The notes: a model not told the origin generated them from the sequence alone. A stretch of DNA of 64,000 nucleotides from an uncultured Lentisphaerota bacterium (GCA_903872565.1 CAIQLG010000012.1:18337-82336), one strand, 5' to 3'. Shown: positions 17,819 through 42,854, counted from the first letter of the stretch. Numbers and translations: made by a program.

Positions 17819-17977
17819 TCAGTCCTCTGCTGTTGCGAGTGCCACAGCTTCAGCATACTCCAGATAGATTTCGACCGAGGGCACAACAATTCTGGCCTCA
17901 ACCTCGATACCTTTGTCCATCACGCGATCCATAGCTTCGACCAGGCTTGGACTTCCGCTTGTTTTTTCCGCTGTCAT
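17819..17977 (-). CDS. 52-aa GvpA-like protein lacking the central beta-hairpin (in-frame 16-residue gap relative to GvpA)
   Basis: Below the ORF-track length cutoff; I translated it by hand: [52 protein letters not shown]. It aligns with GvpA residues 1-24 and 41-68. SD GGGGAATACC and a sigma54-like element lie upstream. Confidence 0.6.
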
Positions 17978-21428: not shown

Positions 21429-21577
21429 CGTATTCCAGCAATGCCAAATGGCAATGTCGATGCGTATGAGGAATAGGATGCCAGCTGAGCTGATGCAGTT
21501 TTCATATGATGAAAAGCGTAAGCGGCAGAACAATTGACGCTCATGCAAAAATAAGTAAACTCGAAAGGAGAAGAACA

Positions 21578-28895: not shown

Positions 28896-29675
28896 ATGAA
28901 CGGACAGAGAGTGACAATTGTTGCCGGGGCGGCTCGTGGCATTGGTCTGGGGGTGGCAAAAGCCTTGGCCAAGCGCGGAGACGAAGTAGTGCTGGCCGAT
29001 ATTCTTTTCAAGGATCAGAAATGTCAAGCCGCCGCACAAAAAGCAATAGGCAAAGCGGTTTTGACACTGGAGGTGGATGTTTCAAACACAGTACAGGTGG
29101 AACGACTGATTGCTTGTGTTATTGAACGATTTGGCCGGGTTGACTGCCTGGTGAATGCGGTTGGAATCAATCGTCCCGGGTTGATTCAGGACACAAGCGA
29201 TCAGGACTGGAATGCAGTAATGGCTGTAAATCTTACAGGGGCATTTTTGCTGTCGCGGGCCGCATCCAGGCCAATGCTCAAGCAGCACAGTGGCAGGATT
29301 GTCCATGTCGGATCCACAGCTTCGCACAGTTCGGCTGCCGGGTTGGCCGCCTATTCGGCATCCAAGCATGGACTGATCGGACTTGTGCGCGGCATGGCAT
29401 GCGATCTGACACCATATGGGATCACGGTAAATGCCGTATGCCCTGGGAACAATGATACCGAGATGCTCTCCGATGTCATTTCCGCACGCGCAAAACTACA
29501 GGGGCGCAGCCCCGGGGATGTGCGAGAGGATATGATTCGCAAAACTCCGGCAGGCCGGATTGGAACTCCCCAGGACGTTGCCGCCGCAGTATTGTTTCTG
29601 ACTTCCGATGATGCTGGATACATTACCGGACAGATGCTTACGGTGGATGGGGGACGGAGTCTGAACTTGGTTTGA
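28896..29675 (+). CDS. Short-chain dehydrogenase/reductase (SDR)
   Basis: GAARGIGLG cofactor motif, NAVGI, catalytic YSASKHG. 259 aa. Confidence 0.9.
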   Translation: MNGQRVTIVAGAARGIGLGVAKALAKRGDEVVLADILFKDQKCQAAAQKAIGKAVLTLEVDVSNTVQVERLIACVIERFGRVDCLVNAVGINRPGLIQDTSDQDWNAVMAVNLTGAFLLSRAASRPMLKQHSGRIVHVGSTASHSSAAGLAAYSASKHGLIGLVRGMACDLTPYGITVNAVCPGNNDTEMLSDVISARAKLQGRSPGDVREDMIRKTPAGRIGTPQDVAAAVLFLTSDDAGYITGQMLTVDGGRSLNLV

Positions 29676-29862: not shown

Positions 29863-30885
29863 ATGATGAAAGCTTTCACTATATCGGAACCATTTAAAAC
29901 CCGGATAGGGAATCAAGAGATGCCTGTGGCGAAAAAAGGAGAATCTCTCCTTAAGACCTTGTATGCTGGCATATGCGGTTCGGATGTCGCGGCATTCAAG
30001 GGGGAACAGCCATTTGTCACTTATCCGAGAATCCCTGGACACGAAGGCGTATATGAAGTCGTTGAAACTGATGATGAAGCAAAGGAGTTGAAGGCGGGAG
30101 ATATTGTCACAGTCGAGCCCTATTTCAATTGCGGCAAATGCTATCCGTGTCTGCATGGAAGAAGGAATTGCTGCATCGAAAATCAGACTATGGGGGTACA
30201 TCGCAACGGTGTAATGGCCGAGTATTTCTCCGTGCCCAATGAAAAAATATATAAGATTGGGGACAATACTGATGTCGATCCGTCAATGTCTTTGACCGAG
30301 CCTCTAGGCGTGGCTATGCACGCCGTTGCCCAGGCATGCATAACTCCGCTTGACAATGTTTTCATTGTAGGGGCCGGGCCGATTGGCTTGTGTATTGCCG
30401 TCCTGTGCAGATACTACGGTGCCGAGGCAATTATTACGGATATTGATCCTTTTCGATTGGGTATGGCTGCCAAGCTGGGCTTTGAACATGCGTTTATTGC
30501 TGGCAGTGAAGACGGAAAACAGCTTGTCCAGAAGATGACAGGCAAGTCGGGCTGTGACGCCGTCTTTGAAGCGACAGGCACACCGGAAGGGTTCATGTCA
30601 GCCATAGAGATGGCCGCCTCTTCGGGCAGGATTGTACTGGTGGGGAATGGCAAACGCGAAGTGAAATTCTGCCACAGTGTGCTGCTGAAAAAAGAACTGA
30701 GGCTTTTGGGAAGCCGGAACAGTCAAGGTTGTTTCCCTAAAATAATTGATTTGCTGAAAACACGTAAAATAGATGTCAAAGCCATTATAACCCATATCAT
30801 TGATTTTAAAGATGTGGAGAGAGCTTTCAAAATGATATCTGACATACAGGAACCTGTCGGCAAGGTGCTGATAAGATTCTCTTAA
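29863..30885 (+). CDS. Zinc-dependent medium-chain alcohol/polyol dehydrogenase
   Basis: GICGSDVAAFKG, GHEGVYEV, structural-zinc Cys cluster CGKCYPCLHGRRNCC, GAGPIGL Rossmann motif. Confidence 0.9.
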   Translation: MMKAFTISEPFKTRIGNQEMPVAKKGESLLKTLYAGICGSDVAAFKGEQPFVTYPRIPGHEGVYEVVETDDEAKELKAGDIVTVEPYFNCGKCYPCLHGRRNCCIENQTMGVHRNGVMAEYFSVPNEKIYKIGDNTDVDPSMSLTEPLGVAMHAVAQACITPLDNVFIVGAGPIGLCIAVLCRYYGAEAIITDIDPFRLGMAAKLGFEHAFIAGSEDGKQLVQKMTGKSGCDAVFEATGTPEGFMSAIEMAASSGRIVLVGNGKREVKFCHSVLLKKELRLLGSRNSQGCFPKIIDLLKTRKIDVKAIITHIIDFKDVERAFKMISDIQEPVGKVLIRFS

Positions 30886-30908: not shown

Positions 30909-31976
30909 ATGCGTGATGTTAGAAAAACAGATTTCAACAGGATGCTTAAGACGTTGAGATGCGAAGAGCCGGATTTTGTGCCAATAGCTGAATTGAGCAT
31001 TGACGCCGCAGTGAAAGAAAAGTTTTTAGGAAGGCCAATAAAAACGATAAAAGATGATGTGGAATTTTGGTGCAAGGCCGGATACGATTATGTATATTTG
31101 CGTCCAAACTACGAATATCCCGGGCTGCCGGCCAGCGTTGCGGTGGGAACAACAATCAATAGGGAAAATGTGGCCAGCGCTGAAGAAGCCGCATCCGAAA
31201 TGGATTCATGGCAAAAGATTAGCACAGAGAAAGACATTGAAAACTTTCCTTGGCCCGATCCCGAAACCATAGACTATTCCAATCTTGTGGAAGCCGCCGG
31301 ATGTCTGCCCGAAGGCATGCAGATAATATCTGGAGTAGGGGGAATATTCACACGCACATGGATGTTGCTCGGATTTACTGAATTCTGCATGAAGCTGTCA
31401 GAGCATCCGGAGATTATCAAGAAAATGTTTGACCGCATTGGCGGCATTCAGTGCCAGGTATTGAGGAAGGTGGTGAAAATGAAGAAAGTCGGCGCTTTCT
31501 GGTATGGAGATGATCTTGCCTATACGGAAGGACTTATGGTTTCACCGGACATATATAGAAAATATCTGCTACCATGGCTTGAGGAGCTGTTCAGCATAGC
31601 CCATAAGGCCAAGCTGCCGGTCATTATGCATACGGATGGTGATGTCCAGCCACTGATTGACGATCTTGTCAAAATAGGACTGAACGCACTTCATCCCATA
31701 GAGCCGAAAGCGATGGACATCAACCTGCTGAAAAAGAAATATCAGAACAGATTATGCCTGATTGGCAATATAGACATGGCTGGTTCTCTGGGGCGTGGTA
31801 CTCCAGATGAAGTGAGGCAGGAAGTCAAGGAAAGGATTAGGAATGTCGCGCCCGGCGGCGGGTATGCTGTCGGTTCAAGTAATTCAGTCGCTTCTTACAT
31901 ACCGATTGAAAATTATAGGGCGATGATAGAGGCGACTTTTGAATATGGGCAATACCCTAAACATAAAGGAATATGA
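30909..31976 (+). CDS. Uroporphyrinogen decarboxylase (URO-D) family protein, paralog U1
   Basis: TIM-barrel URO-D-like layout. Closest in-window paralog is U5 (LHPIEPKAMDI..., GGGYAVGSSNSV). AGAGG SD. Confidence 0.8.
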   Translation: MRDVRKTDFNRMLKTLRCEEPDFVPIAELSIDAAVKEKFLGRPIKTIKDDVEFWCKAGYDYVYLRPNYEYPGLPASVAVGTTINRENVASAEEAASEMDSWQKISTEKDIENFPWPDPETIDYSNLVEAAGCLPEGMQIISGVGGIFTRTWMLLGFTEFCMKLSEHPEIIKKMFDRIGGIQCQVLRKVVKMKKVGAFWYGDDLAYTEGLMVSPDIYRKYLLPWLEELFSIAHKAKLPVIMHTDGDVQPLIDDLVKIGLNALHPIEPKAMDINLLKKKYQNRLCLIGNIDMAGSLGRGTPDEVRQEVKERIRNVAPGGGYAVGSSNSVASYIPIENYRAMIEATFEYGQYPKHKGI

Positions 31977-31979
31977 AAA

Positions 31980-33089
31980 ATGGATGCAATGACTCCGAGA
32001 GAACGTTTCGTAGCGTCTATGACTTTTAAACCAGTTGATCGCTGTTTTCTGAAGCCTTCCAATTTTTCGCCGTTGACGATAAAGAGATGGGAAAAAGAGG
32101 GACTTCCGAGCGGACTCGATCCTAACATCTATTTTGGAATGGATCCGCGGGAGTTCATACGGGTAAACATGGAGTGCTGTCCTGGCTTGCCGGAAAAAAT
32201 AATCGAGACGGATGATGAATATGTCACCAAGACCAACTCGGAAGGCATCACTCTGAAACAGCTCAAGTCTGACACGCTTTCGGCAATGCCTCATTTCGTT
32301 GACTGGCCGATCAAATGCCGTGATGATTTTAAACGAATCAAGGACCAGTATCAAGCAAGTGTAAAGGAACGGTATCCCAAGGATTACGAGGAGAAAGTGG
32401 ATTTCTGGAATAACCGCTGCACTGCTCCTGTTGTTTATGAATTCCGGGGAATGTTTTTCCACCGCTTGCGGATGTGGATGGGGCTGGAGGGGCTTAGCAT
32501 GGCAATGTATGATGATCCCGGATGGATACACGAAATGGTCGATTTTCTTGAAGATTTCCTGGTGAAAGTTTCAGCAAAGGTTTTATCGGAAGTTAAACTT
32601 AGCTATGTCTATGCATGTGATGACATAGCATATAAGAACGCTTCCCTTATCTCACCAAAACAGTTTTACGAGTTTTTCTTTGAACCTACGAGGAGAATGG
32701 TACGGAAGGTTCATGATGCAGGAGTGCCTGTCATCGTCATGGATTCAGATGGTAACCTTGATGAATTTGCGCAGATTTATCTTGATGCAGGTTTCAATAC
32801 CATCTGTCCAATAGAGGTTGCTGCAGGGAATGATTTGATAGCAATGCGTAAGCGCTTTGGCAAGAAATTGGCATTGCAGGGCGGATTTGACAAGAGAATT
32901 CTTACGATGGGTAAAGATGCCATCACCAAGGAAGTGATGCGTCTTTATCCAAGGATGATGTCAGAGGGGGGATTTACTCCTGAAATAGACCACGCGGTCC
33001 CTGAAAACGTCTCTTTTGAAAATTATAGGCACTATCAGGAAATTACCAGAAAAATAGCCGAGAATCCAGTGCATCATACAATAAAATAA
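31980..33089 (+). CDS. URO-D family protein, paralog U2
   Basis: MDAMTPRERFVASMTFKPVDRC... Highly similar throughout to U3. Starts 3 nt after the U1 stop. Confidence 0.8.
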   Translation: MDAMTPRERFVASMTFKPVDRCFLKPSNFSPLTIKRWEKEGLPSGLDPNIYFGMDPREFIRVNMECCPGLPEKIIETDDEYVTKTNSEGITLKQLKSDTLSAMPHFVDWPIKCRDDFKRIKDQYQASVKERYPKDYEEKVDFWNNRCTAPVVYEFRGMFFHRLRMWMGLEGLSMAMYDDPGWIHEMVDFLEDFLVKVSAKVLSEVKLSYVYACDDIAYKNASLISPKQFYEFFFEPTRRMVRKVHDAGVPVIVMDSDGNLDEFAQIYLDAGFNTICPIEVAAGNDLIAMRKRFGKKLALQGGFDKRILTMGKDAITKEVMRLYPRMMSEGGFTPEIDHAVPENVSFENYRHYQEITRKIAENPVHHTIK

Positions 33090-33163
33090 GAAAGGAATTT
33101 ATCGAATGAACAGCAGCAAACTCCTGAGCCCATTGAAACGTGCGCTCCTAAGGAATAAATAAA

Positions 33164-34270
33164 ATGAAAGCAATGACTCCGAGAGAACGTTTTGTTGCCA
33201 GCCTGACCTTTCAACCCGTTGACCGCTGTTTTGTGAAATCTGACAGTCCTATGCCTAGGACGCGAAAACGGTGGGAGAAGGAGGGGCTGCCGGAAGGCGT
33301 AGAGCCTAGCGTGCATCTGGGAATGGACGCTAGGGAATACGTGAAAGTTTACATGGAATGCTATCCCGGTTTTGAAGAACGGGTGATCAGCGAGGACTCT
33401 GAGTATGTCGTAAAGACGAACTCGGAAGGCATCGTGCTGAAACAGCCAAAGGAGGACGCTCTTTCGGTTATGCCCCAGTTCTTTGACTGGCCGGTAAAGG
33501 GTCGCAAGGATTTCGAACGCATGAAGGAGCAGTTTCTGCCAAGTATATCCGGGCGCTATTCCGCTGACTACGATCAGAAACTCGATTATTGGAACAATTT
33601 GTGCACCAATCCGGTTGGCTATGAGTTTCGCGGCGGCTTTTTCCATCGGCTGCATATGTGGATGGGGCTAGAGGGATTGTGTTTTGCCATGTTTGAAGAT
33701 CCGGACTGGGTGCATGAAATGGTCGCATTCCTGGAAGACTGGATGTTCAAGGTATCGGAAAAGGTGCTCTCAGAGGTGAAGCTGGATTTCGTATACATGT
33801 GCGACGACATCGCTTATAAAACTGCATCGCTCATTTCACCGGCGCATTTCCGTGAATTCTTTTTCGATGCGGAACGCAGGATAATTGATCGGGTTCGCCG
33901 TGCCGGCATACCGGTAATCATTATGGACACCGATGGCAATATCGATGAGTTTGCCGCAATATATGGAGAAGTGGGATTCAATGTGACAACCCCCATTGAG
34001 GTGGCCGCTGGCAATGATCTTATAAAGCTCAGGAAACGCTTTGGAAGGAATCTTGCACTACAGGGCGGCTTCGACAAGCGGGTGCTTGCCGCCGGACGCA
34101 AGGCAATACATACTGAGGTGATGCGCCTTTACCCGCGACTGATGGCTGAAGGGGGATTCATCCCTGGCATCGATCACCAGGTGCCGGAAGATGTCTCATG
34201 GGATTCATATCGATACTATGTGGAATTGACTCATCAGATTTCAGAAAATCCGGGGAGGTACGTAAAATGA
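33164..34270 (+). CDS. URO-D family protein, paralog U3
   Basis: MKAMTPRERFVASLTFQPVDRC... Tandem duplicate of U2. Confidence 0.8.
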   Translation: MKAMTPRERFVASLTFQPVDRCFVKSDSPMPRTRKRWEKEGLPEGVEPSVHLGMDAREYVKVYMECYPGFEERVISEDSEYVVKTNSEGIVLKQPKEDALSVMPQFFDWPVKGRKDFERMKEQFLPSISGRYSADYDQKLDYWNNLCTNPVGYEFRGGFFHRLHMWMGLEGLCFAMFEDPDWVHEMVAFLEDWMFKVSEKVLSEVKLDFVYMCDDIAYKTASLISPAHFREFFFDAERRIIDRVRRAGIPVIIMDTDGNIDEFAAIYGEVGFNVTTPIEVAAGNDLIKLRKRFGRNLALQGGFDKRVLAAGRKAIHTEVMRLYPRLMAEGGFIPGIDHQVPEDVSWDSYRYYVELTHQISENPGRYVK

Positions 34271-35331
34271 CAAGCATAGAACGGATAGAGAAAGTATTGA
34301 AACGGGAAAAGGCGGACAGGCCGGCATGTTCTCTGAGGTGCACACCGGAAGTATGGGATGATTTAATGCGGCATTTTGGAGTTGCCACAAAAGCGGATGT
34401 CCTGGATAAGTTGGATGTTGATCTTCGTTGGGTGTCTGTTCCGTTCTGCGGGCCAAATGATCGGTCAGCACCAACCATGGGAGGCGCGGGCACCGATCTT
34501 TGGGGCAACGTCATGGAGGCCTCAAAGAACGAGTTCAACACCTATTATGAAATTGTCAGGCACCCGCTGGCCAACTGCAAAACGGTAGACGAAATCATGG
34601 ACTATGCGTGGCCCAGTCTCGACTGGTGGGATTATTCCAAAATCAAAGATGATATAAAAGCCAACAATAAAAGCGGTGACAGGGCGATTTTGTATACCTG
34701 CGGCGGCGGTTTTGAACATGCATGGTATATGCGGGGGATGGAGCAATTCCTTGTTGACCTGTATGAAGATCCTGCAATTGTCACCGCCATTTTATCCAAG
34801 ATAATTGAGTACGCTTATAAAAAAGCCATGAGGGTGTTGGAAGCGGCCGACGGTAAAATAAATATTGTTGCTGCCGGAGGTGATATCGGCGGACAGGATG
34901 GGCTCATGCTTAGCCCTGAGATCTGGCGGGAGCTGATCAAGCCACATAGTGCAGGGCTGATTGTACCGTTCAAGAAAATGGGTTTTGGCACATTTTATCA
35001 TTCCTGTGGATCGGTCACAGAGGTGATCGACGATTTTATCGGGATGGGGCTTGATATGATTGATCCCATTCAGGTTACAGCGCGCAATATGCAGCCGGAA
35101 AACCTTTTCAATAGATTCGGAGACAGGATATCCTTTCACGGCGCTATTGACGAGCAGCACCTTTTACCGCACGCCTCGCCCAGAGAGGTCTACGATGAGA
35201 CGACAAGAATAATCTCGATACTTGGAGGAAACGGGGGCTATGTGGTTTCCCCTTCGCATCAGATACAGGGCGACACAAGCGTGGCGAACATCGTTGCAAT
35301 TTATAAGGCTGTTAAAGATTTTCGTTATTAG
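34267..35331 (+). CDS. URO-D family protein, paralog U4
   Basis: Start trimmed to ATG 34267 (MTSIERIEKVLKREKADRPA), giving an ATGA start/stop overlap with U3. Closest paralog is U6. Confidence 0.8.
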   Translation: MTSIERIEKVLKREKADRPACSLRCTPEVWDDLMRHFGVATKADVLDKLDVDLRWVSVPFCGPNDRSAPTMGGAGTDLWGNVMEASKNEFNTYYEIVRHPLANCKTVDEIMDYAWPSLDWWDYSKIKDDIKANNKSGDRAILYTCGGGFEHAWYMRGMEQFLVDLYEDPAIVTAILSKIIEYAYKKAMRVLEAADGKINIVAAGGDIGGQDGLMLSPEIWRELIKPHSAGLIVPFKKMGFGTFYHSCGSVTEVIDDFIGMGLDMIDPIQVTARNMQPENLFNRFGDRISFHGAIDEQHLLPHASPREVYDETTRIISILGGNGGYVVSPSHQIQGDTSVANIVAIYKAVKDFRY

Positions 35332-35530
35332 CGGGGGAATCTTCAGGCTTGAATCATAGTCATCCCACAGGATGACGGATTGATGGATTTTTGGATTGCC
35401 CGCCTTCGTCCAATTCGGACTACGGCGTGGCATGTTGGATTATTGGTTTTGAGTTAAGAAAAAGCAAAGACGCATGGAATTGGAATTGAAATAAAAAAAG
35501 GCATTTTGAAAAAAAATGAGGAAAATAAAT

Positions 35531-36514
35531 ATGATGACTTCACGTGAACGTGTATTGACAGCTCTCAAGGGCAAGGAGGCAGACAGGGTTCCATTCTGTG
35601 AACAGAGCATAGCGCAGAATGTGGTCATGTCAATAGCTGGAAGAGATAAGGAATTAACTCAAAAAGAAATCTCGAAACTTCTCAAAAGGGATAATGTCGC
35701 CTTTGACCTTACGCCTCCGATATTTGCCAGAAAAGAAATTTCCGATGATGGACAATCTTATTATACAGAAGGACTTATCAAGACACGGGATGATCTGAAA
35801 TTGATGAAGTTTCCTGATCCCAAGGATAAGGAACTTATCGCCAGGGCGAAAGAATTTGTCAAAGGCAAGGAGGATTATGCGGCAGCAGCATCTGTCAGGC
35901 TCGGGGCGGCAGGAATGTTGAACAGCATGGGGGTGGACAATTTCTGCATGGCGCTGGCGGATGATCCGTCGCTGGTTTCCGAGATCCTGGAGAAGTATGC
36001 GGAATGGACGATGTCACTCATGGAATGGGTCAATGAAATAGGTTTTGACCTTGTCTGGTCTTTCGATGATATCGCCTTTAGGACAGCCCCGCTTTTTTCC
36101 CCGGAAGTATTCCGCGAAATTTTTCTCCCTGTCTTGCGAAAGGCATCTTCAACCATAAAACTTCCATGGATTTATCACAGCGATGGAAACCTGATGCCCA
36201 TATTGGATGATCTGTTGACACTGGGCATGTCCGGATTGCATCCTGTTGAGCCTGAAGCGATGGATATAGAAAAACTCAAACTCGATTATGGTCGGCGTAT
36301 TTGCCTGCTTGGCAACATAAATGTCCACCACTTGGCCACGAGGAGCCCGGAAGAAATAGACGAAGAAGTCAAGGAGAGGATTAGTTGCATTGCCTTGGGA
36401 GGCGGTTATATTGTGTCAAGTTCAAACAGCATTCCGTCGTACGCAAAGCCTGAAAACTTTCTGGCGATGGCAAAGGCGATACAGAAGTATGGGAAATATC
36501 CGATTCATTTGTAA
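35531..36514 (+). CDS. URO-D family protein, paralog U5
   Basis: Start trimmed to ATG 35531 (MMTSRERVLTAL, GAGGA SD). The C-terminal half is close to U1. Confidence 0.8.
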   Translation: MMTSRERVLTALKGKEADRVPFCEQSIAQNVVMSIAGRDKELTQKEISKLLKRDNVAFDLTPPIFARKEISDDGQSYYTEGLIKTRDDLKLMKFPDPKDKELIARAKEFVKGKEDYAAAASVRLGAAGMLNSMGVDNFCMALADDPSLVSEILEKYAEWTMSLMEWVNEIGFDLVWSFDDIAFRTAPLFSPEVFREIFLPVLRKASSTIKLPWIYHSDGNLMPILDDLLTLGMSGLHPVEPEAMDIEKLKLDYGRRICLLGNINVHHLATRSPEEIDEEVKERISCIALGGGYIVSSSNSIPSYAKPENFLAMAKAIQKYGKYPIHL

Positions 36515-36612
36515 AAGCCTGAAGTTATAGAGAAAAACATGAGGAAGTGTAACCTCAAGAGCAGGAATAATTTTTGTGTCGGAAATTAAATTTATTCAGG
36601 GATTGCAGCAAA

Positions 36613-38199
36613 ATGCAAAGACTTAACTGTAAACTGCTAAAGAAAACGGACAAGTATTCTCAAAAAGTTGAAGCAGTCAAAATCAATGATTTCCCAGAGA
36701 AAGTCATCCAATTTGGAGAAGGTGCTTTCCTTAGGGGGTTTATGGATTACATGATAAACCGTATGAATGAAGCGGGCGTCTTCAAAGGGAGAGTGATTGT
36801 TGTTCAACCAATAGAGCAAGGTTTATCGGAGGCATTCAATGGTCAAGATTGCCTGTATACTCTTGTTCAAAGGGGAATGGAAGATGGTGGGATATATGAG
36901 AAAATTGAAATAATAACTGCGGGAAGCAGATGTATCAATCCATACACAAGATGGCAGGAGTATATTGCTTGTGCATCCCAATCGGAACTGAGGCTTGTCG
37001 TTTCCAATACAACAGAAGCAGGGATTGCGTTTGTAGATGAAAGAAAACCAGAGGACAATTGCCCGGCTTCCTTCCCTGCAAAGCTAACAGCGTTTTTACA
37101 TGAAAGATATCTTGTGTTTGATGGTGCGCATGACAAAGGCATGATTATGCTTCCATGCGAACTGATAGAACGGAACGGAGATCAATTGAAGGAAATTGTC
37201 TTAAAGCTTTCAGACCGATGGCTGCTCGGTTCCGGATTCAACCAATGGATTAAAGAGAGCAACTATTTCTTGAACACCCTGGTGGATAGTATTGTTCCAG
37301 GGTATCCGAAAGATGAGATAGAAGAAATTCAAACGGAATTGGGCTATGAGGATAAACTTCTGGTAGTTTCCGAGCCTTATCGCTTGCTTGTAATTGAAGG
37401 AGACAGCCGGTGCTCTGAAGAGTTGCCCTTTGCTGCCGCAGGTATAAATGCAGTTTGGACAGATGACATAAGCAAATATAGAAATCTGAAAGTAAGAATA
37501 CTGAATGGCTCACACACAATGACTGCGTTGGCAGCGTATTTGTGCGGCAAAGATACTTTCATTGAGTGCATGGAAGATGAGCTTGTAGGAAAATATATTC
37601 AAAAGGGGATATCCGAGGAAATTGTGCCTTCTATTGAACTTCCTGACAGTATTAAGATGGATTATGCCAACACTGTTATTTCAAGGTTTAAAAACCCATT
37701 TATCAAGCATCCACTATTAAATATTTCACTTAACTCGACTTCAAAATTCACCGTAAGAATTTTACCTTCCTTATTGGCCTACTCTCGCTTGAAAAAGAAA
37801 CTGCCTGACATTCTGTGTTTTTCGCTGGCGGCACTCATAAGATTTTACATGGGAACGGAAGTGGAGGGTTGTGCCTTGATTGGTAAGAGGAATGAAGAAG
37901 TGTATTTGATAAGGGATGATAAAAACAAACTTGAGTTAATGGCAAAGGAATGGAAAGCGTTTAAGAGCCACGGAGATATAAGATTACTTTGCGGCAGACT
38001 GCTGGCCGATGCGGAAATATGGGGAGTGAATCTGGATGGGATAGAGGGCCTGACCTGTAAGGTGGCAGAGCATTTTTCATATATCATGCAAAATGGTATA
38101 AAGGCCGCAATTCAGAAGGTGACTGGAACATGTGAAGTAGCGCCTGCACAGATTTGTGAATGTCAACCACAGATCGCAAACAGCATAGATTGCCATTAA
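36613..38199 (+). CDS. uxaB: Mannitol-dehydrogenase-family oxidoreductase, tagaturonate (altronate) reductase-like
   Basis: FPEKVIQFGEGAFLRGFMDYMINRMNEAGVFKGRVIVVQP matches the UxaB N-terminal signature. Start trimmed to ATG 36613. Symbol is tentative. Confidence 0.75.
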   Translation: MQRLNCKLLKKTDKYSQKVEAVKINDFPEKVIQFGEGAFLRGFMDYMINRMNEAGVFKGRVIVVQPIEQGLSEAFNGQDCLYTLVQRGMEDGGIYEKIEIITAGSRCINPYTRWQEYIACASQSELRLVVSNTTEAGIAFVDERKPEDNCPASFPAKLTAFLHERYLVFDGAHDKGMIMLPCELIERNGDQLKEIVLKLSDRWLLGSGFNQWIKESNYFLNTLVDSIVPGYPKDEIEEIQTELGYEDKLLVVSEPYRLLVIEGDSRCSEELPFAAAGINAVWTDDISKYRNLKVRILNGSHTMTALAAYLCGKDTFIECMEDELVGKYIQKGISEEIVPSIELPDSIKMDYANTVISRFKNPFIKHPLLNISLNSTSKFTVRILPSLLAYSRLKKKLPDILCFSLAALIRFYMGTEVEGCALIGKRNEEVYLIRDDKNKLELMAKEWKAFKSHGDIRLLCGRLLADAEIWGVNLDGIEGLTCKVAEHFSYIMQNGIKAAIQKVTGTCEVAPAQICECQPQIANSIDCH

Positions 38200-38238
38200 A
38201 AAATCAAGAACATTTTGCAATGAAGGTCTAATTACATT

Positions 38239-39378
38239 ATGAAGAAAGAATTTACGATGACTTCTAGAGAGAGAATGAGGGCTGCCGTGGCCCATAAAAT
38301 ACCTGACAGGGTGCCTGTTGATCTCAATGGCCGTGGATCGGCTATCGAGGAGGGCGCTTACAATGATCTGAAAAACTATCTTGGCATAGATGCAGATGTG
38401 CCAACAGTGAATTTTATCCGTTCACATGCCACAATTTCGGATGAGATACTGGATATGTTCAATGTTGATGTCCGCTATGTCCGTAGTGTGCCATCCGAAA
38501 GCTGGCGGAAAGAAGGCGGCGACGAGTTCTTTTTTGATCAGTGGAAAGTGCCGTGGAAAAAGGCGTCGGGCAGCCATTATTTTGATATAGACAGATTTAT
38601 CTTTAAGGACATTACTGAGGATGATATCGACAAGCTATCCTGGCCAGAACTTATTACCGACTGCATGATAGCCAACATCAAAAAGCAGGCAAAGCATTTG
38701 CATGAGACGACAGATTACAGCATTTATACCGACGTATTAGGTTCCGCCATTTTTGAGAGTGCCTGGTATCTCAGAGGCTTTGAACAGTTCATGATCGATA
38801 TGATGGTTGACGAAGGATTTGCCGCGAAATTTCTGCGCAAGGTGCTGGATTTGCAGCTTGATGCCTATGGTAAGCTCTTAAGCGAGACAGCACAATATAT
38901 AGACGGCATATTCGTGACCGACGACCTGGCATCCCAGGAAAGTTTATTAATGTCCAATGAGTTGTATAAAAAAATGATCCAACCCTACCAGAGGGAGCTT
39001 ATTGGCTTTATCCATTCAAAAGGCGTGAATGTGGTTTACCATAGTTGTGGCGCAATATCTCAGATGCTGCCTGATCTGATCGAAGCAGGCATCAATATTT
39101 TACACCCCGTACAGCTTTCTGCAAAAGGGATGGATCCGGACATCCTCAAGAGAGAGTATGGCGATAAGCTGACATTTTGGGGTGGGGGCTGCAATAGTCA
39201 AAAAACACTGCAGTTCGGCTCAGTCCAGGAGGTTAAGGATGAGGTGAAGTTCCGCCTTGAGAGGCTTGCGTCCGGAGGTGGATATGTATTTGCCCCAGAG
39301 CATTGCATCCAGTCAGGAACCCCTCCCAGAAATATTGTGGCCATGTTTGAAACGGTAAAAGAGTTCGGTGTGTATTGA
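38239..39378 (+). CDS. URO-D family protein, paralog U6
   Basis: MKKEFTMTSRERMRAAVAHKIPDRVPVDL... The C-terminal GGGYVFAPEHCIQSGTPPRNIVAMFETV is paralogous to U4. Confidence 0.8.
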   Translation: MKKEFTMTSRERMRAAVAHKIPDRVPVDLNGRGSAIEEGAYNDLKNYLGIDADVPTVNFIRSHATISDEILDMFNVDVRYVRSVPSESWRKEGGDEFFFDQWKVPWKKASGSHYFDIDRFIFKDITEDDIDKLSWPELITDCMIANIKKQAKHLHETTDYSIYTDVLGSAIFESAWYLRGFEQFMIDMMVDEGFAAKFLRKVLDLQLDAYGKLLSETAQYIDGIFVTDDLASQESLLMSNELYKKMIQPYQRELIGFIHSKGVNVVYHSCGAISQMLPDLIEAGINILHPVQLSAKGMDPDILKREYGDKLTFWGGGCNSQKTLQFGSVQEVKDEVKFRLERLASGGGYVFAPEHCIQSGTPPRNIVAMFETVKEFGVY

Positions 39379-39408: not shown

Positions 39409-40734
39409 ATGAACATCAAATTGAAGAAAAGTCTGGCGATGCAGGAAAAGGCGAAAAAGTTAATTCCAGGAATGACACAGCTTTTATCAAAACGCCCTGA
39501 TCAGTTTTCCCTGGGAGTGTGGCCTGGATACTACAGCAAGGCAAAAGGTGTTGAAGTATGGGATTTGGATGGAAACCGCTACGTTGACATGAGCATTGGC
39601 GGCATTGGCGCAAACGTCCTCGGCTATGCTGATCCTGACGTGGATTCCGCCGTCGTGGAGGCGATAAGGAATGGGAGCAGTTGCACTCTGAACTGTCCTG
39701 AAGAAGTGGAATTGGCTGAATTGCTGTGCGAGCTTCACCCGTGGGCAGGGATGGTACGTTATGCAAGGACTGGCGGCGAGGCAATGGCCATAGCAGTCAG
39801 GATCGCTCGTGCCCACACAGGAAAAGACAAGATTGCTTTCTGTGGATACCATGGCTGGCATGACTGGTATTTGTCGGCAAATGTGGGCACAGGAAATGCC
39901 TTGGGTGGACATTTGCTTCCGGGGCTTAATCCTTGTGGCGTGCCCAAAGCCCTGGCCGGAACGTCTTATCCCTTCCGTTATGATCATCTCGAAGAATTGG
40001 AGAAGATTGTGAAAGAACACGGAAAGGACTTGGGCGTTATTGTCATGGAGGCGGTACGGAAGGCGGAAAAACCTGCAGACGGATTTCTGGACGGGGTCCG
40101 TGCATTGGCCGACAAAACCGGAGCGGTCCTGGTTGTAGACGAAATATCTTCCGGATTCAGAATGAATACCGGAGGAGCCCATCTGGTGTTGGGACTGAAG
40201 CCGGACATCGCAGTTTTTTCAAAAGCCATTGGAAACGGTTATCCTATTGCGGCTGTAATAGGGAAGGCGGATATTATGCAGTCGGCACAGAAGACATTCA
40301 TCAGCAGCACATGCTGGACAGAACGCACAGGTCCTGCGGCAGCCATTGCAACAATAAGAAAACACAAGGCCGTCAATGCTGGAAAACATCTTATGTCGAT
40401 TGGCCAGAAGGTTCGCAACGGATGGGAGGAATGTGCAGTACGGCACGGTATGAATATTGAGATAGCCGGCATGTACCCCATGAGCCATTTTACATTCAAG
40501 CATGAGAAACATTTGTCTTTAAAGGCATTGCTCGTCCAGTGGATGCTAGAAAAAGGGTTTTTAGCTTCAACATCTTTCTATGCGATGTATGCTCACAAGG
40601 AAGAACATGTCAGCCTTTATCTGGACGCGGTTGACCAGGTCTTCGCAAAAATCAGTGATGCCATAAAGGATAACAAAATCGACGAACAGCTTGTAGGACT
40701 TCCATCTACAGCTGGATTCAAGAGATTGACATAA
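39409..40734 (+). CDS. Class-III (PLP) aminotransferase, glutamate-1-semialdehyde aminomutase (HemL)-like
   Basis: LVVDEISSGFR and the PLP-lysine context AVFSKAIGNGYPIAAV. Overall HemL-like length and order. Confidence 0.85.
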   Translation: MNIKLKKSLAMQEKAKKLIPGMTQLLSKRPDQFSLGVWPGYYSKAKGVEVWDLDGNRYVDMSIGGIGANVLGYADPDVDSAVVEAIRNGSSCTLNCPEEVELAELLCELHPWAGMVRYARTGGEAMAIAVRIARAHTGKDKIAFCGYHGWHDWYLSANVGTGNALGGHLLPGLNPCGVPKALAGTSYPFRYDHLEELEKIVKEHGKDLGVIVMEAVRKAEKPADGFLDGVRALADKTGAVLVVDEISSGFRMNTGGAHLVLGLKPDIAVFSKAIGNGYPIAAVIGKADIMQSAQKTFISSTCWTERTGPAAAIATIRKHKAVNAGKHLMSIGQKVRNGWEECAVRHGMNIEIAGMYPMSHFTFKHEKHLSLKALLVQWMLEKGFLASTSFYAMYAHKEEHVSLYLDAVDQVFAKISDAIKDNKIDEQLVGLPSTAGFKRLT

Positions 40735-40746
40735 GGAGGCAATATT

Positions 40747-42024
40747 ATGAAAATCGGATTAGGCTCAACAGATATCACTCCGCCTATGGGAATAGAAATG
40801 GTCGGATATCATTATGACCGGCATGCGGAGGATGTCCATGACAAATTATGGGCAAGGACAATCTGCTTTGATGACGGACGGAAGAAGGCGGCCATAATAT
40901 CATGCGACATTTGTTTTTTTGAGAAAAAGACTGTCGATTTGGTAAAGGAAGAAATTGCCGCGCAGAATTTACTGCCATGGAAAAATATCATACTATGCGC
41001 TTGTCATACCCATACCGGCCCGGTGGTTTCCGGTGATTATGAGCGATATCTGGTGAAAAAGATAGCTGAATCATTGAAAACCGCACAGGCCTCCCTAACT
41101 AACGCGACTCTGAGCGCAGGGACTTTCCCTTTGCCCAAGGTGTGTTTCAACAGACGGTATTGGATGAAGGACGGAACGGTTGTCACCAATCCGGGGAAAT
41201 GCAACCCGGGGATAGTCAGACCTGCCGGCCCGGCTCCCACAGAAGCGCCATTTGTCATAATGAACCTGGAGAAGAACAACGGCGCATCCTGTCTTCTTGT
41301 CAATATACCGCTTCATCCTGATACGATCGCAGGGAATCTAATCTCCGCCGACTATCCATATTACATCGCGGATGAAATCAAGAAGAGAATGCCTTCCATC
41401 TCCGAAGTAATATATGCGAACGGAACCAGCGGCAATATTAATCACTGGGATGTGGCAGATCCTGGGCTCCAGCGTGGCTTTGATGAAGCAGAACGGATTG
41501 GCAGGGCGATAGGAAATGCTCTGCTTGCTTCATGCCCAACAGTAAAACCTGCTAAATCCGATTGTATTGCCGTTGAACGGCAGAAAATAAAACTGCCTGT
41601 CATAAAAGTTTCAAAAGAGGAATTGCTCGAGGCAGAAAGGATTTTGCTAAAACCATATCCTCCAGGAGTGGATTTCACGATGGAAGTGGTCCATGCTAAA
41701 AAACTGATCAGGGCAGTTGGAATCAAAGATGACAGTGTCGATGCCGAAATTACCGCTGTTGGAGTAGGAGATATCGTTTTCATAGGGATGCCTGCAGAAC
41801 TGTTTGTCGAACTTGGAATTGAAATAACAAGGAAATCACCATTTCTGACAACTGTCATCATGGATCTTTCTTATGGCTGTATCGGATATATCGCAACACC
41901 TGAAGCATATGAACAGGGCGGCTATGAAGTCGTTTCAAACATCTACAAGCCGGAAGCAGGAAGCATTGTTGTAGATGCGACACTTCAGGTGCTGAATCGT
42001 CTTCGCAGCAAAATCTTGGTGTAG
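40747..42024 (+). CDS. Neutral/alkaline ceramidase N-terminal-domain-like hydrolase
   Basis: MKIGLGSTDITPPMGIEMVGY...DKLWARTICFDDG...CACHTHTGP are motifs typical of this family. No signal peptide. Confidence 0.6.
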   Translation: MKIGLGSTDITPPMGIEMVGYHYDRHAEDVHDKLWARTICFDDGRKKAAIISCDICFFEKKTVDLVKEEIAAQNLLPWKNIILCACHTHTGPVVSGDYERYLVKKIAESLKTAQASLTNATLSAGTFPLPKVCFNRRYWMKDGTVVTNPGKCNPGIVRPAGPAPTEAPFVIMNLEKNNGASCLLVNIPLHPDTIAGNLISADYPYYIADEIKKRMPSISEVIYANGTSGNINHWDVADPGLQRGFDEAERIGRAIGNALLASCPTVKPAKSDCIAVERQKIKLPVIKVSKEELLEAERILLKPYPPGVDFTMEVVHAKKLIRAVGIKDDSVDAEITAVGVGDIVFIGMPAELFVELGIEITRKSPFLTTVIMDLSYGCIGYIATPEAYEQGGYEVVSNIYKPEAGSIVVDATLQVLNRLRSKILV

Positions 42025-42104: not shown

Positions 42105-42854
42105 ATGATTATTGATGCGCACACACATATGCCAAGCCCTGGCTGGCCAGGACATAACGATTTTTTCCCCACCGTTGGATCTGCGGTGGAATATCTGAAA
42201 AACAAGGAAATTGGCGCTGCACTTTTTAACACATGGCAAGGAGTGTTTGCCGAAACGGCGGACGATGTCAACCGCGCCAATACCGAGGCGTTGCAATTAT
42301 ATGACACATATCAGGGATTTCTTTATCCTGGGGCGGTAATACATCCATCGTTTCCTGAAATATCCAAGCAATGGCTGGACCGTTTCCGCGATCATGGTTT
42401 TATGTGGGTCGGAGAACTAATCCAATACAAATGCAATATCGAATTTAACGAACCCTCATGGCTGTCGCTTTTCGAGTACTGTGCAAAACACGGACATGCG
42501 GTACAATTACATGGAAGCAAAAGCTTAAACGACGTTGCCGCCAGATTCCCTGACATGCAGGTTGTCTGCTCCCATATCAATCTGGATTTGCTCAATGAAC
42601 TCGCTAACAACCGAAATGTGTGGCTGGATGTCAGCGGATCGGTCGGGGGACTTTACCTTGGAGCGATAGAGGCGGCATTGAAATCTTTCGGCGAGAAACG
42701 CATGCTCTTCGGCACCGATTTCACTGGTTATGAGCCGGACGTGTTTATTGCAAGAATTAACCTGGCCATTAAAGACATGAATGCGAGGGAGGCTGTTTTT
42801 TCTAGAAATATAACGGGATTATTGGCAAAAATAGGAAGTCGCCCGATAGGCTGA
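42105..42854 (+). CDS. Metal-dependent amidohydrolase (Amidohydro_2-like TIM barrel)
   Basis: MIIDAHTHM N-terminal metal-binding motif, later HG.. and ..FGTDF. 249 aa. Confidence 0.7.
   Translation: MIIDAHTHMPSPGWPGHNDFFPTVGSAVEYLKNKEIGAALFNTWQGVFAETADDVNRANTEALQLYDTYQGFLYPGAVIHPSFPEISKQWLDRFRDHGFMWVGELIQYKCNIEFNEPSWLSLFEYCAKHGHAVQLHGSKSLNDVAARFPDMQVVCSHINLDLLNELANNRNVWLDVSGSVGGLYLGAIEAALKSFGEKRMLFGTDFTGYEPDVFIARINLAIKDMNAREAVFSRNITGLLAKIGSRPIG

What the first reader, a model, noticed from the sequence alone, without database searches (positions are those of the whole stretch)
30909..39378. Six uroporphyrinogen-decarboxylase-like paralogs in a sugar-catabolic operon
U1-U6 form three paralog pairs (U1/U5, U2/U3, U4/U6). 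They are tightly packed, with a 3-nt gap between U1 and U2 and an ATGA overlap between U3 and U4. A UxaB-like reductase sits among them; a Zn-ADH and an SDR lie upstream and a HemL-like aminotransferase downstream. No other tetrapyrrole genes are present. There are also no corrinoid proteins or MtaB/MtaC-type partners, which would be expected if these were MtaA-like methyltransferases. The family's known chemistries are cofactor-free decarboxylation of acetate side chains and Zn-dependent methyl transfer. Neither has an established role in carbohydrate breakdown, so this looks like an undescribed enzyme set, possibly acting as heteromers. Candidate substrates are carboxylated or O-methylated sugars.
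Basis: partly seen in the sequence, partly recalled or inferred. Interest (0 to 1): 0.7.

Follow-up and report, generated by a model that had tools for sequence, protein, structure and literature searches.

The report
Six UroD-like enzymes, sugar operon
One operon for breaking down an unusual sugar-like compound carries six very divergent relatives of a haem-synthesis enzyme and of methanogen methyl-transfer enzymes; they belong to neither known group, and they may strip methyl groups from sugars without oxygen, a job no known enzyme does.

Summary
Six PF01208 (URO-D) genes lie at 30909-39378 inside a roughly 19-gene plus-strand operon. The operon also encodes a GntR regulator, a split transketolase, two FAD oxidoreductases, a BNR protein, an SDR, a Zn-ADH, a UxaB-like reductase, an aminotransferase, amidases and an esterase.

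The six genes form three ancient lineages:
- A: U1 and U5
- B: U2 and U3
- C: U4 and U6

None is HemE or a canonical MtaA. All fall far below the curated cut-offs, and the HemE motif is absent. Only lineage C keeps the MtaA zinc positions, as His-x-Cys...His.

The window holds no corrinoid protein, and neither do the six most closely related loci (seven with the window). Those relatives share a conserved, reshuffled core: U1, U2, U5 and a U4-like gene, with an SDR, FAD oxidoreductase, and either the transketolase or the amidase plus aminotransferase.

Homologues of all three lineages sit directly beside corrinoid proteins in other genomes. Corrinoid-linked U1 homologues keep the same 25 invariant residues. 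Two related clusters carry an MttB-family gene.

My best guess (confidence 0.4) is methyl removal from a methylated sugar-like substrate, using a corrinoid carrier encoded elsewhere. The close rival (0.35) is a corrinoid-independent chemistry not yet described. Function is unproven, and I found no literature on this.

The parts
20688..21368 (+). GntR/FCD-family regulator, probably the operon's regulator
   Evidence: Pfam GntR + FCD. A GntR-FCD gene also heads the related clusters L093 and L010.
21506..22447 (+). Split transketolase, N-terminal (TPP-binding) subunit
   Evidence: PF00456, 129 bits; NF004559. Orthologues at 69-74% identity in L010 and L092.
22467..23381 (+). Split transketolase, C-terminal subunit
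   Evidence: PF02779 + PF02780. Start taken from the public gene call. Orthologues at 73-75% identity in L010 and L092.
23387..24811 (+). FAD-dependent oxidoreductase (PF12831)
   Evidence: PF12831, 337 bits. 76% orthologue in L010 and 43% in L092.
24899..26296 (+). BNR/Asp-box beta-propeller protein, function unknown
   Evidence: PF13088/PF02012. BNR_2 proteins recur in L092, L093 and L094.
26541..28853 (+). Second FAD-dependent oxidoreductase (PF12831), 770 aa
   Evidence: PF12831, 285 bits.
28896..29675 (+). Short-chain dehydrogenase/reductase
   Evidence: PF13561/PF00106. The SDR directly precedes the UroD genes in L092 and L093 as well, at 59-70% identity. SDR is the commonest neighbour family of U1-like genes.
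29863..30885 (+). Zn-dependent alcohol/polyol dehydrogenase
   Evidence: PF08240 + PF00107. Best NCBIfam models are PRK10083 and threonine/inosose/idonate dehydrogenases, all below cut-off.
30909..31976 (+). U1, UroD-superfamily lineage A. Site pattern His241-x-Asp243 ... Glu265 ... Asn, with no Cys ligands.
   Evidence: PF01208, 2.1e-25. Best PDB match by sequence is MtaA 4ay7, 5e-8. Model pLDDT 80, TM 0.68-0.71 to MtaA. The clade is highly conserved: the top 120 homologues are at least 50% identical.
31980..33089 (+). U2, UroD-superfamily lineage B. Site pattern Asp255-x-Asp257 ... Glu279 ... Asp337-His338.
   Evidence: PF01208, 3e-14. Invariant residues from alignments A1 and A2. Model pLDDT 95, TM about 0.65 to HemE and MtaA. 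340 clusters at 50% identity match at E <= 1e-30.
33164..34270 (+). U3, lineage B, a recent duplicate of U2 (65% identity)
   Evidence: PF01208, 2.8e-15; blastp.
34267..35331 (+). U4, lineage C. His-Ser-Cys ... His at the MtaA zinc-ligand positions. Its start overlaps the U3 stop (ATGA).
   Evidence: PF01208, junction, alignment A3 and its alignment to MtaA 4ay7.
35516..36514 (+). U5, lineage A' (distant sister of U1, 31% identity). Site pattern His-x-Asp ... Glu ... Asn.
   Evidence: PF01208, 6.5e-27. U5-like genes directly follow U1-like genes in L111, L127, L135, L136 and L149.
36574..38199 (+). Tagaturonate-reductase-like (UxaB-type) mannitol-dehydrogenase-family enzyme
   Evidence: PF01232 + PF08125. 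NF002969, 602 bits against a cut-off of 359. Public gene calls start it at 36613.
38239..39378 (+). U6, lineage C. His268-x-Cys270 ... His355-Cys356 at the MtaA zinc-ligand positions.
   Evidence: PF01208, 2e-21. A 42% homologue is flanked by two corrinoid proteins (L091). A 66% homologue lies next to LuxS and Pfs (L089).
39409..40734 (+). Class-III (HemL-like) aminotransferase; not HemL
   Evidence: PF00202. Below all hemL cut-offs. 57% orthologue in L097.
40747..42024 (+). Protein with a neutral-ceramidase N-terminal-like domain (putative amidase)
   Evidence: PF04734, residues 2-106 only. Homologues in L097 (58%), L010 and L093.
42105..42854 (+). Amidohydrolase_2 family protein (a family of lactonases and metal-dependent decarboxylases)
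   Evidence: PF04909.
43123..45000 (+). SASA-family carbohydrate esterase
   Evidence: PF03629, 165 bits.

Best explanation
The six genes encode three old lineages of the UroD/MtaA TIM-barrel superfamily. They are co-transcribed with enzymes that oxidise, reduce, transaminate and cleave a sugar-like molecule.

The most likely job is removing methyl groups from a methylated sugar-type substrate. Candidates are an O-methyl uronate, hexose or cyclitol, or a methylated amino-sugar. The chemistry would be the corrinoid methyl transfer used by the non-HemE members nearest these proteins.

Proposed roles:
- The Cys-free lineages A (U1, U5) and B (U2, U3) act on the substrate side, like zinc-free MT I enzymes.
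- Lineage C (U4, U6), with its His-x-Cys...His site, acts on the acceptor side like MtaA, methylating a thiol or another nucleophile.
- The corrinoid carrier protein and its activase would be encoded outside this window.
- The demethylated product would then be processed by the SDR, Zn-ADH, UxaB-like reductase, FAD oxidoreductases, lactonase-type amidohydrolase and aminotransferase, and finally cleaved by the split transketolase.

Shown here: superfamily membership, the three lineages and their site patterns, conserved co-occurrence with the catabolic genes, and corrinoid-protein adjacency of homologues.

Inferred: methyl transfer itself, the substrate, the division of roles, and a carrier encoded in trans.
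For: 1. MtaA and MtaA/CmuA models are the best sequence matches for U1, U4, U5 and U6. MtaA is also the best structural match for the U1 model.
2. Lineage C aligns His268/Cys270/His355 onto MtaA chain residues 246, 248 and 325. These are His240, Cys242 and Cys319 in the published numbering as I remember it. The three positions are invariant in 23 sequences.
3. Homologues of every lineage lie beside B12-binding proteins:
   - L091: CP, U6-like (42%), CP, URO-D.
   - L107: U1-like (54%), 115 bp, CP, URO-D.
   - L108: U1-like, 145 bp, CP.
   - L146: U6-like, CP, U5-like, TRAP transporter, then a U1-like gene followed after 85 bp by a B12-binding sensor kinase and a DUF1638 protein.
   - L094 and L149: the U6-like/U1-like/U5-like group in L094, U1-like plus U5-like in L149; each with AFOR and a CP about 5 kb away.
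   - L033: CP, 28 bp, U2-like.
   - L016: four U2/U3-like genes with a CP 1.9 kb away.
4. The corrinoid-linked U1-likes keep the 25 invariant residues of the clade: 25/25 in L094 and L108, 23/25 in L107. The catalytic machinery therefore matches that of U1.
5. Two close orthologous loci, L092 (U1 71%, U2 78%) and L096 (U1 79%), carry an MttB-superfamily gene near U1. All characterised members of that family known to me are corrinoid methyltransferases. No corrinoid gene lies within the DNA held for either locus, which shows the carrier can be encoded elsewhere in these organisms.
6. Zinc-free UroD-fold MT I enzymes exist, namely CdmB and the Moorella O-demethylase (PMC13222342), so loss of the Cys ligands does not exclude this chemistry.
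7. Clusters with several UroD paralogues working around one corrinoid protein have a precedent in the mlp gene clusters (PMC10418091).
Against: - No corrinoid protein or pterin-binding methyltransferase lies in the 64 kb window. No RACE-type activase domain appeared in the Pfam scans, though I had no dedicated probe for it.
- None of the seven loci (window included) whose U1 orthologue is at least 68% identical has a corrinoid protein in its flanks.
- Only 4 of 36 U1-centred loci of at least 8 kb, and 2 of 60 U2-centred loci, have one.
- No B12 family is among the 25 commonest neighbour families.
- No cobalamin riboswitch in the window or in 8 related loci.
- Methyl ethers of aliphatic alcohols are chemically hard substrates for Co(I).
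- No corrinoid-dependent carbohydrate demethylase is known. Only a P450 route is described (PMC6292453).
- In several corrinoid-containing loci, another UroD paralogue could be the true partner of the carrier.
Confidence: 0.4

Rival explanations
1. The six proteins, or at least lineages A and B, are corrinoid-independent enzymes that have taken the UroD barrel into a new chemistry on sugar-derived intermediates. Examples would be metal-assisted decarboxylation of a uronate or keto-acid, isomerisation or epimerisation, or hydration/elimination on keto-sugars. They would work directly with the dehydrogenases and the transketolase.
For: - No corrinoid genes in the window or in any of the closest related loci (0 of 7, window included). 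Corrinoid genes are rare around lineage A (4/36) and lineage B (2/60) in general.
- The MtaA Cys ligands are replaced by carboxylate/His patterns: His-x-Asp...Glu...Asn and Asp-x-Asp...Glu...Asp-His. These are invariant within each clade and look like hard-metal or acid-base sites.
- Neighbours of lineage B are sugar-type enzymes: GFO/IDH/MocA, AP_endonuc_2, aldo-keto reductase, sulfatase, glycoside hydrolases and ABC sugar permeases.
- Neighbours of lineage A are hydroxy- and keto-acid enzymes: DHDPS, Ldh_2, 2-Hacid_dh, HpcH aldolase and TPP enzymes.
- Half of U1-like genes are the only UroD gene within 10 kb.
Against: - The UroD superfamily has no precedent for such chemistry.
- Each lineage shows repeated next-gene adjacency to corrinoid proteins.
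- Corrinoid-linked and sugar-linked U1-likes have the same invariant residues.
- MttB-family genes occur in two orthologous clusters.
Confidence: 0.35
2. Only lineage C (U4, U6) is a methyltransferase. It would be a zinc enzyme that methylates homocysteine or another thiol, serving methionine or sulfur metabolism. Its place in the sugar operon would then be secondary, and the other four paralogues would do something unrelated.
For: - The His-x-Cys...His site is at the MtaA zinc positions.
- The 66% homologue P0124 sits with a second UroD gene directly upstream of LuxS and Pfs, which make homocysteine.
- Other U6-likes are solitary genes in unrelated contexts.
Against: - U4 is translationally coupled to U3 through the ATGA overlap. 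U6 sits between the UxaB-like gene and the aminotransferase gene.
- U4-like genes recur in the related sugar-type clusters L010, L096 and L097.
- This reading does not explain the other four paralogues.
Confidence: 0.12
3. The genes belong to tetrapyrrole metabolism, as HemE-type uroporphyrinogen decarboxylases or salvage enzymes.
For: The Pfam family name. Weak HemE matches for U2 and U3 (TIGR01464, 24 bits; PDB E = 0.015-0.2). HemE is the top structural match of the U2 model, at TM about 0.65.
Against: - Scores are more than ten times below the HemE cut-off of 303 bits.
- The PxWxMRQAGR motif is absent from all six.
- No other haem or cobalamin synthesis gene is in the window.
- The HemL-like gene fails the hemL cut-offs.
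- Six copies in a GntR-regulated catabolic operon make no sense for haem synthesis.
Confidence: 0.01

Closest known systems
MtaA/MtbA/MtsA methylcobamide:coenzyme M methyltransferases (UroD superfamily; structure 4AY7)
   Same: Same fold, with TM 0.63-0.71. They are the best sequence match for U1, U4, U5 and U6. Lineage C keeps His-x-Cys at the first two zinc-ligand positions.
   Different: Bit scores are 45-75 against cut-offs of 235-600. In lineage C the third ligand is His, not Cys. Lineages A and B have no Cys ligands at all. There is no corrinoid protein, MtaB/MtaC or coenzyme M context. The setting is a sugar-type operon in a bacterium.
UroD-fold MT I enzymes of three-component corrinoid systems (O-demethylases OdmB/VdmB/MtvB/MtoB; chloromethane dehalogenase CdmB, PDB 9RUI)
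   Same: The same TIM barrel. Some members work without zinc (PMC13222342). They take a methyl group from an ether or halide substrate, which is the role proposed here for lineages A and B.
   Different: Sequence similarity is only marginal: 9rui at E = 0.0058 for U1 and 0.0026 for the lineage C profile. The known substrates are aromatic methyl ethers or halomethanes. Known systems encode the corrinoid protein, MT II and activase alongside.
Type 1 mlp gene clusters (Kountz and Balskus, PMC10418091)
   Same: Clusters of two or three divergent MtaA-like UroD paralogues from distinct old lineages, in non-methanogenic anaerobes, with shuffled gene order.
   Different: [quoted passage not shown] This cluster has neither partner. 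It has six paralogues and a carbohydrate-type enzyme set.
HemE uroporphyrinogen decarboxylase
   Same: Pfam family and fold. The conserved His of the HemE C-terminal 'GHG' motif aligns with the His of lineages B and C.
   Different: The substrate-binding RQAGR motif is absent. TIGR01464 scores at most 24 bits against a cut-off of 303. There is no haem pathway context.
Cobalamin-independent methionine synthase MetE and other Zn thiol-alkyl transferases
   Same: Same structural clan; MetE appears as a weaker structural match. It uses zinc-activated thiol methylation, the chemistry suggested by the lineage C site and by the LuxS/Pfs neighbourhood of a 66% homologue.
   Different: MetE is a double barrel of about 750 aa with a His/Cys/Glu/Cys site and uses methyl-folate directly. 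There is no sequence-level match here.

Membership tests
UroD superfamily (Pfam PF01208) | Score above the Pfam gathering threshold (23.9 bits) | tested here: met
   53-95 bits for all six.
UroD superfamily (Pfam PF01208) | UroD-type (beta/alpha)8 barrel fold | tested here: met
   For the U1 and U2 models, the top 24-26 PDB matches are all MtaA or HemE, at TM 0.6-0.7. U3-U6 were not modelled.
HemE (uroporphyrinogen decarboxylase proper) | NCBIfam equivalog TIGR01464 cut-off (303 bits) | tested here: not met
   U2 and U3 score 24 bits. The others give no hit.
HemE (uroporphyrinogen decarboxylase proper) | N-terminal substrate-binding motif PxWxMRQAGR (motif recalled from memory; seen in E. coli HemE) | tested here: not met
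   Aligned against E. coli HemE, none of the six has the motif.
HemE (uroporphyrinogen decarboxylase proper) | Haem or tetrapyrrole pathway context | tested here: not met
   No other tetrapyrrole gene is in the window. The HemL-like gene is below the hemL cut-offs.
MtaA/CmuA-family corrinoid methyltransferases | NCBIfam cut-offs (TIGR01463: 235; NF040654: 400; NF041608: 600; NF004889: 244) | tested here: not met
   Best scores are 75 (U1), 73 (U5), 63 (U6), 47 (U4) and 25 (U2, U3).
MtaA/CmuA-family corrinoid methyltransferases | Zinc triad His-x-Cys ... Cys | tested here: inconclusive
   U4 and U6 have His-x-Cys plus His at the third position. U6 also has a Cys next to that His. U1 and U5 have His-x-Asp...Asn, and U2 and U3 have Asp-x-Asp...His, so the triad is not met for those four.
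MtaA/CmuA-family corrinoid methyltransferases | Cognate corrinoid protein encoded nearby | tested here: not met
   None in the window or in the closest related loci (0 of 7, window included). One is present beside more distant homologues of all three lineages.
Type 1 mlp gene cluster | [quoted passage not shown] | tested here: not met
   No B12-binding protein is in the window. No activase-type domain appears in the Pfam scans. Orthology to Mlp1-3 was not tested because no reference sequences were on hand.
UroD-fold MT I (O-demethylase/CdmB type) | Methyl transfer from substrate to a corrinoid protein | not testable with these tools
   This needs enzymology. The only sequence link is marginal: 9rui at E = 0.0058 for U1 and 0.0026 for the lineage C profile.

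The most novel reading that the evidence does not exclude
The UroD barrel has been recruited, in three lineages at once, as a toolkit for carbohydrate catabolism. One version is an anaerobic route that removes methyl groups from sugars, using a corrinoid supplied in trans or no corrinoid at all. The other is an entirely new, non-methyl chemistry on sugar acids or keto-sugars. Either would be the first carbohydrate-active role for this fold. It would also assign a function to hundreds of unannotated 'uroporphyrinogen decarboxylase family' genes in Planctomycetota, Victivallales, Anaerolineae, Armatimonadota, Bathyarchaeia and gut Clostridia.
Probability: 0.3. Interest if true: 0.8.

Novelty: new variant of a known kind. 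Interest (0 to 1): 0.58.

Why it matters
Methylated sugars block ordinary sugar catabolism. Examples are 4-O-methyl-glucuronate in xylan, the 2-O-methyl sugars of pectin RG-II, 6-O-methyl-galactose in porphyran, and methyl-inositols. The only characterised carbohydrate demethylase is an oxygen-dependent P450 (PMC6292453). How anaerobes cope is unknown.

This operon and its relatives offer a concrete, testable candidate set.

Lineage B alone spans at least 340 clusters at 50% identity. Its conserved motifs matched about 420 places in a collection of one genome per species, across many phyla. All carry the misleading label 'uroporphyrinogen decarboxylase'. Even if the chemistry proves different, any assigned function would correct annotation on a large scale.

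Tried and rejected
- Literature: eight full-text searches on UroD or PF01208 combined with sugar, polysaccharide, PVC-phylum, sulfatase/GH or corrinoid sugar-demethylation terms found nothing relevant. The exceptions were the mlp-cluster preprint, the CdmB paper and the P450 demethylase paper.
- Organism identity: cluster look-ups gave no names. The nearest species genome is an unnamed 'uncultured bacterium' (L010). Some related loci carry N_methyl and SBP_bac_10 genes, which from my own knowledge are common in the PVC group of bacteria. That hint is all I have.
- A single conserved partner gene: all-against-all clustering of ORFs around U2-like and U1-like genes found none. The top 'partner' clusters were antisense shadow ORFs of the UroD genes themselves.
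- Cobalamin riboswitch: none in the window or in 8 related loci.
- Plasmid collection: only distant hits of 24-28% identity.
- Cultured host: the Bianquea renquensis U2-like gene is a single gene beside an AraC-family regulator, which says nothing about function.
- Closest U6 homologues with usable contigs are solitary genes in unrelated contexts.
- The 184-nt U4-U5 spacer has no repeat elsewhere in the window and no unusual fold, with z = -0.4. No convincing intergenic terminator lies between the UroD genes.
- The first genome scan, with a 34-sequence alignment, failed because no stretch was conserved enough. It was repeated with 10 sequences.

Full report
**Observation.** The + strand of the window carries a long run of co-oriented, tightly spaced genes from about 20688 to 45000. 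Six of them hit Pfam PF01208 (URO-D) well above the gathering score, with E-values from 3e-14 to 6.5e-27. They are U1 30909-31976, U2 31980-33089, U3 33164-34270, U4 34267-35331, U5 35516-36514 and U6 38239-39378. Pairwise BLASTP confirms the three pairs. U1/U5 are 31% identical over full length, U2/U3 are 65%, and U4/U6 are 30%. Between pairs, identity is 22-30% and mostly limited to the C-terminal half. Only U2/U3 is a recent duplication. The rest are old lineages, which I call A (U1, with U5 as a distant sister A'), B (U2, U3) and C (U4, U6).

**The rest of the operon.** In order, the operon encodes:
- a GntR/FCD regulator;
- a split transketolase (N and C subunits);
- a PF12831 FAD oxidoreductase;
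- a BNR propeller protein;
- a second, 770-aa PF12831 protein;
- an SDR and a Zn-ADH;
- U1 to U4, then U5;
- a tagaturonate-reductase-like enzyme (602 bits against a cut-off of 359);
- U6;
- a class-III aminotransferase;
- a protein with a ceramidase-N-like domain;
- an Amidohydro_2 protein;
- a SASA esterase.

The aminotransferase resembles HemL but fails every hemL cut-off. There is no tetrapyrrole gene. No B12-binding domain, pterin-binding methyltransferase or activase-type domain appeared among the 40 ORFs of at least 150 aa that I scanned, the plausible ones of 67. A six-frame tblastn with three corrinoid-protein probes found nothing in the window. No cobalamin riboswitch is present.

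**What the six proteins are not.**
- Against NCBIfam, HemE (TIGR01464, cut-off 303) scores 24 bits for U2 and U3 and nothing for the others.
- The MtaA, MtbA and MtaA/CmuA models score at most 75 bits against cut-offs of 235-600.
- Aligned with E. coli HemE (fetched), none has the N-terminal WMMRQAGR substrate-binding motif.
- AlphaFold models of U1 (pLDDT 80, pTM 0.83) and U2 (pLDDT 95, pTM 0.92) match only MtaA and HemE structures at TM 0.6-0.7. MetE and generic TIM barrels come far behind.

The six proteins are therefore true members of the UroD superfamily, but of neither characterised family.

**Active-site patterns.** A profile of lineage C aligns to MtaA (4AY7) such that His268 and Cys270 of U6 fall on the His-x-Cys of 'LHICG'. 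His355 falls on the Cys of 'PGCG'. These are chain residues 246, 248 and 325, which correspond to His240, Cys242 and Cys319 in the published numbering as I remember it. All three positions are invariant in 23 lineage C sequences. U6 and its close relatives also have a Cys right after that His.
- Lineage A has His241-x-Asp243, an invariant Glu265 in 'HPIEPKAMD', and Asn at the third position. It also has many invariant Arg and Lys residues.
- Lineage B has Asp255-x-Asp257, Glu279 and Asp337-His338, invariant in 34 sequences.

Only lineage C looks like a zinc-thiolate-type site.

**Distribution.**
- Lineage B: 340 clusters at 50% identity match U2 at E <= 1e-30. A scan of one genome per species found 423 relatives in Victivallales, Planctomycetota, Anaerolineae, Armatimonadota, Latescibacterota, Omnitrophota, Bathyarchaeia, Spirochaetes and Clostridia. 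One of these is the cultured Bianquea renquensis.
- Lineage A is unusually conserved. The 120 best homologues of U1 are all at least 50% identical.
- Lineage C gave more than 1,700 hits.
- Every name given by a source is 'uroporphyrinogen decarboxylase (family)' or 'hypothetical', apart from one stray 'nucleoside 2-deoxyribosyltransferase' label.

**A conserved module.** The loci whose U1 orthologue is 68-79% identical repeat much of the window's gene set, in shuffled order.
- L010 has U2 (75%), a U4-like gene, U1 (71%), both transketolase subunits (69-73%), the FAD oxidoreductase (76%), a U5-like gene, two ceramidase-N-like genes and a GntR.
- L092/L099 has U1 (71%), U2 (78%), both transketolase subunits (74-75%), the SDR (70%), an FAD oxidoreductase, BNR, three more UroD genes plus a 139-aa UroD fragment, AP_endonuc_2, PHP and an MttB-family gene.
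- L093 has GntR-FCD, two BNR genes, transketolase, the SDR (59%), U1 (69%), U2 (69%) and a U5-like gene (46%).
- L097 has a U4-like gene, U1 (79%), U2 (68%), U5 (70%), the ceramidase-like gene (58%), the aminotransferase (57%), SDRs, GFO/IDH/MocA and PHP proteins.

Co-occurrence that survives rearrangement argues that the UroD genes work with the catabolic enzymes. UxaB, SASA and Amidohydro_2 are found only in the window.

**Wider neighbourhoods.** I took a Pfam census of 145 neighbours of U1-like genes from about 36 metagenomic loci. The commonest families were SDR (9), DHDPS (7), ABC_tran (6), Ldh_2 (5), amidohydrolases (4), transketolase (4), TPP enzymes (4), GntR (4), M20 (4), PHP (4), 2-Hacid_dh (3) and HpcH aldolase (3). 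This is a hydroxy-acid, keto-acid and sugar-acid theme.

The same census of 148 neighbours of U2-like genes from 58 species genomes is diffuse. It includes GFO/IDH/MocA, alpha/beta hydrolases, ABC permeases, DegT, aldo-keto reductase, AP_endonuc_2 and peptidases. Individual loci show sulfatases and glycoside hydrolases. No B12 family is in the top 25 of either census.

UroD paralogues cluster. There are 2.35 per U1-centred locus, with a recurrent U6-like/U1-like/U5-like trio. Even so, about half of U1-like genes are the only UroD gene within 10 kb.

**The corrinoid link.** Corrinoid proteins are absent here, but they appear right next to homologues of all three lineages elsewhere:
- L091: CP, U6-like (42%), CP, URO-D.
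- L107: U1-like (54%), 115 bp, CP, then a more canonical URO-D.
- L108: U1-like, 145 bp, CP.
- L146: U6-like, CP, U5-like, TRAP transporter, 2-hydroxyacid dehydrogenase, U1-like, then after 85 bp a B12-binding/PocR histidine kinase, followed by DUF1638.
- L094/L111 and L149: the UroD group with AFOR and a CP about 5 kb away.
- L033 (Bathyarchaeia): CP, 28 bp, U2-like.
- L016 (Anaerolineae): four U2/U3-like genes with a CP 1.9 kb away.

The corrinoid-linked U1-likes keep 23-25 of the 25 invariant residues of the clade. Whatever they do, U1 very probably does with the same catalytic apparatus.

Two of the close 'sugar-module' loci, L092 and L096, also carry an MttB-superfamily gene near U1 without any corrinoid gene in the DNA available. 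As far as I know, all characterised members of that family are corrinoid methyltransferases. If so, these organisms do separate such enzymes from their carrier.

The literature adds three points. UroD-fold MT I enzymes can lack zinc (CdmB, PMC13222342). Clusters of several MtaA-like paralogues around one corrinoid protein exist in many anaerobes (mlp clusters, PMC10418091). The UroD superfamily is known for decarboxylation, zinc-dependent alkyl transfer and corrinoid methyl transfer only.

**Weighing the evidence.** For methyl transfer:
- the nearest known relatives are methyltransferases;
- lineage C has a zinc-type site;
- corrinoid adjacency recurs in all three lineages;
- active sites are identical in corrinoid-linked and sugar-linked U1-likes;
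- MttB genes occur in orthologous clusters.

Against methyl transfer:
- 0 of 7 loci of the close subclade (window included) have a corrinoid gene, as do only 4 of 36 U1-centred and 2 of 60 U2-centred loci of at least 8 kb;
- there is no riboswitch;
- sugar methyl ethers are poor leaving-group substrates;
- in several corrinoid-containing loci, another UroD paralogue could be the real partner of the carrier.

I put 0.40 on a methyl-removal role with a carrier encoded elsewhere. On that reading the operon demethylates a methylated sugar, uronate, cyclitol or amino-sugar and then degrades it. I put 0.35 on a corrinoid-independent, undescribed chemistry. I put 0.12 on only lineage C being a thiol methyltransferase; a 66% homologue of U6 sits beside LuxS and Pfs, which make homocysteine. 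About 0.01 goes to tetrapyrrole metabolism. The rest goes to other or mixed cases.

**Verdict.** The weak point was treating the missing corrinoid gene as decisive.

This is a new variant within a known superfamily. It is a conserved, multi-lineage UroD gene set tied to sugar-type catabolism. I found no description of it in the literature. If its function is confirmed, it would fill the gap of anaerobic sugar demethylation or reveal a new use of the fold. The functional evidence is genomic only.

Noticed in passing
L092:8563-9984 (+), also L004/L005:920-2341 and L099; fragment at L096:3-242: An MttB-superfamily (PF06253) gene sits between UroD genes in a cluster orthologous to the window's. 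A fragment lies near the U1 orthologue in a second organism. No corrinoid protein is within the DNA held for either. The window has no MttB homologue.
   Followed up: partly
L089:10001-13444: The closest U6 homologue on a long contig (P0124, 66%) is followed by a second UroD gene, then LuxS and an MTA/SAH nucleosidase (Pfs). This gene set makes homocysteine and hints at thiol methylation.
   Followed up: no
L146:11120-12988: A histidine kinase with an N-terminal B12-binding domain and a PocR sensor domain lies directly downstream of a U1-like gene. An AraC-type response regulator and a DUF1638 protein follow it.
   Followed up: no
window 6566-7885, 12441-13769, 13971-15293 (all - strand): Three paralogous proteins fuse an N-terminal response-regulator receiver domain to a Ser/Thr protein kinase domain. 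They sit next to hybrid histidine kinases at 3648-6554 and 7861-9486.
   Followed up: no
window 15661-16413 (-) and 17819-17977 (-): A GvpL/GvpF gas-vesicle protein, and a 52-aa ORF whose sequence looks GvpA-like by eye. No full gas-vesicle cluster is evident.
   Followed up: no
window 16539-17378 (-): An unusual fusion of a PTS HPr domain with an AMPK1_CBM (glycogen-binding) domain.
   Followed up: no
window 18552-18980 (-) and 19601-20335 (+): Just upstream of the operon's regulator lie two features. One is a 142-aa ORF that looks like a transposase fragment by eye. The other is a 244-aa ORF with Asp-box motifs that clusters with the operon's BNR protein, possibly a truncated paralogue. Together they suggest past rearrangement at the operon's edge.
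   Followed up: partly
window 53660-59428 (-): A 1,922-aa protein with CarboxypepD_reg, SpaA-like and FG-GAP repeats, probably a surface protein.
   Followed up: no
L016:2055-8496: An Anaerolineae genome carries four tandem lineage B (U2/U3-like) paralogues with a corrinoid protein 1.9 kb downstream. This is another multi-copy array of the same lineage.
   Followed up: partly
window 36574-38199: The UxaB-like ORF begins at a TTG in the mechanical ORF list. Public gene calls start it 13 codons later (528 aa, about 36613). Public calls likewise start U3 at 33173 and U5 at 35531.
   Followed up: partly
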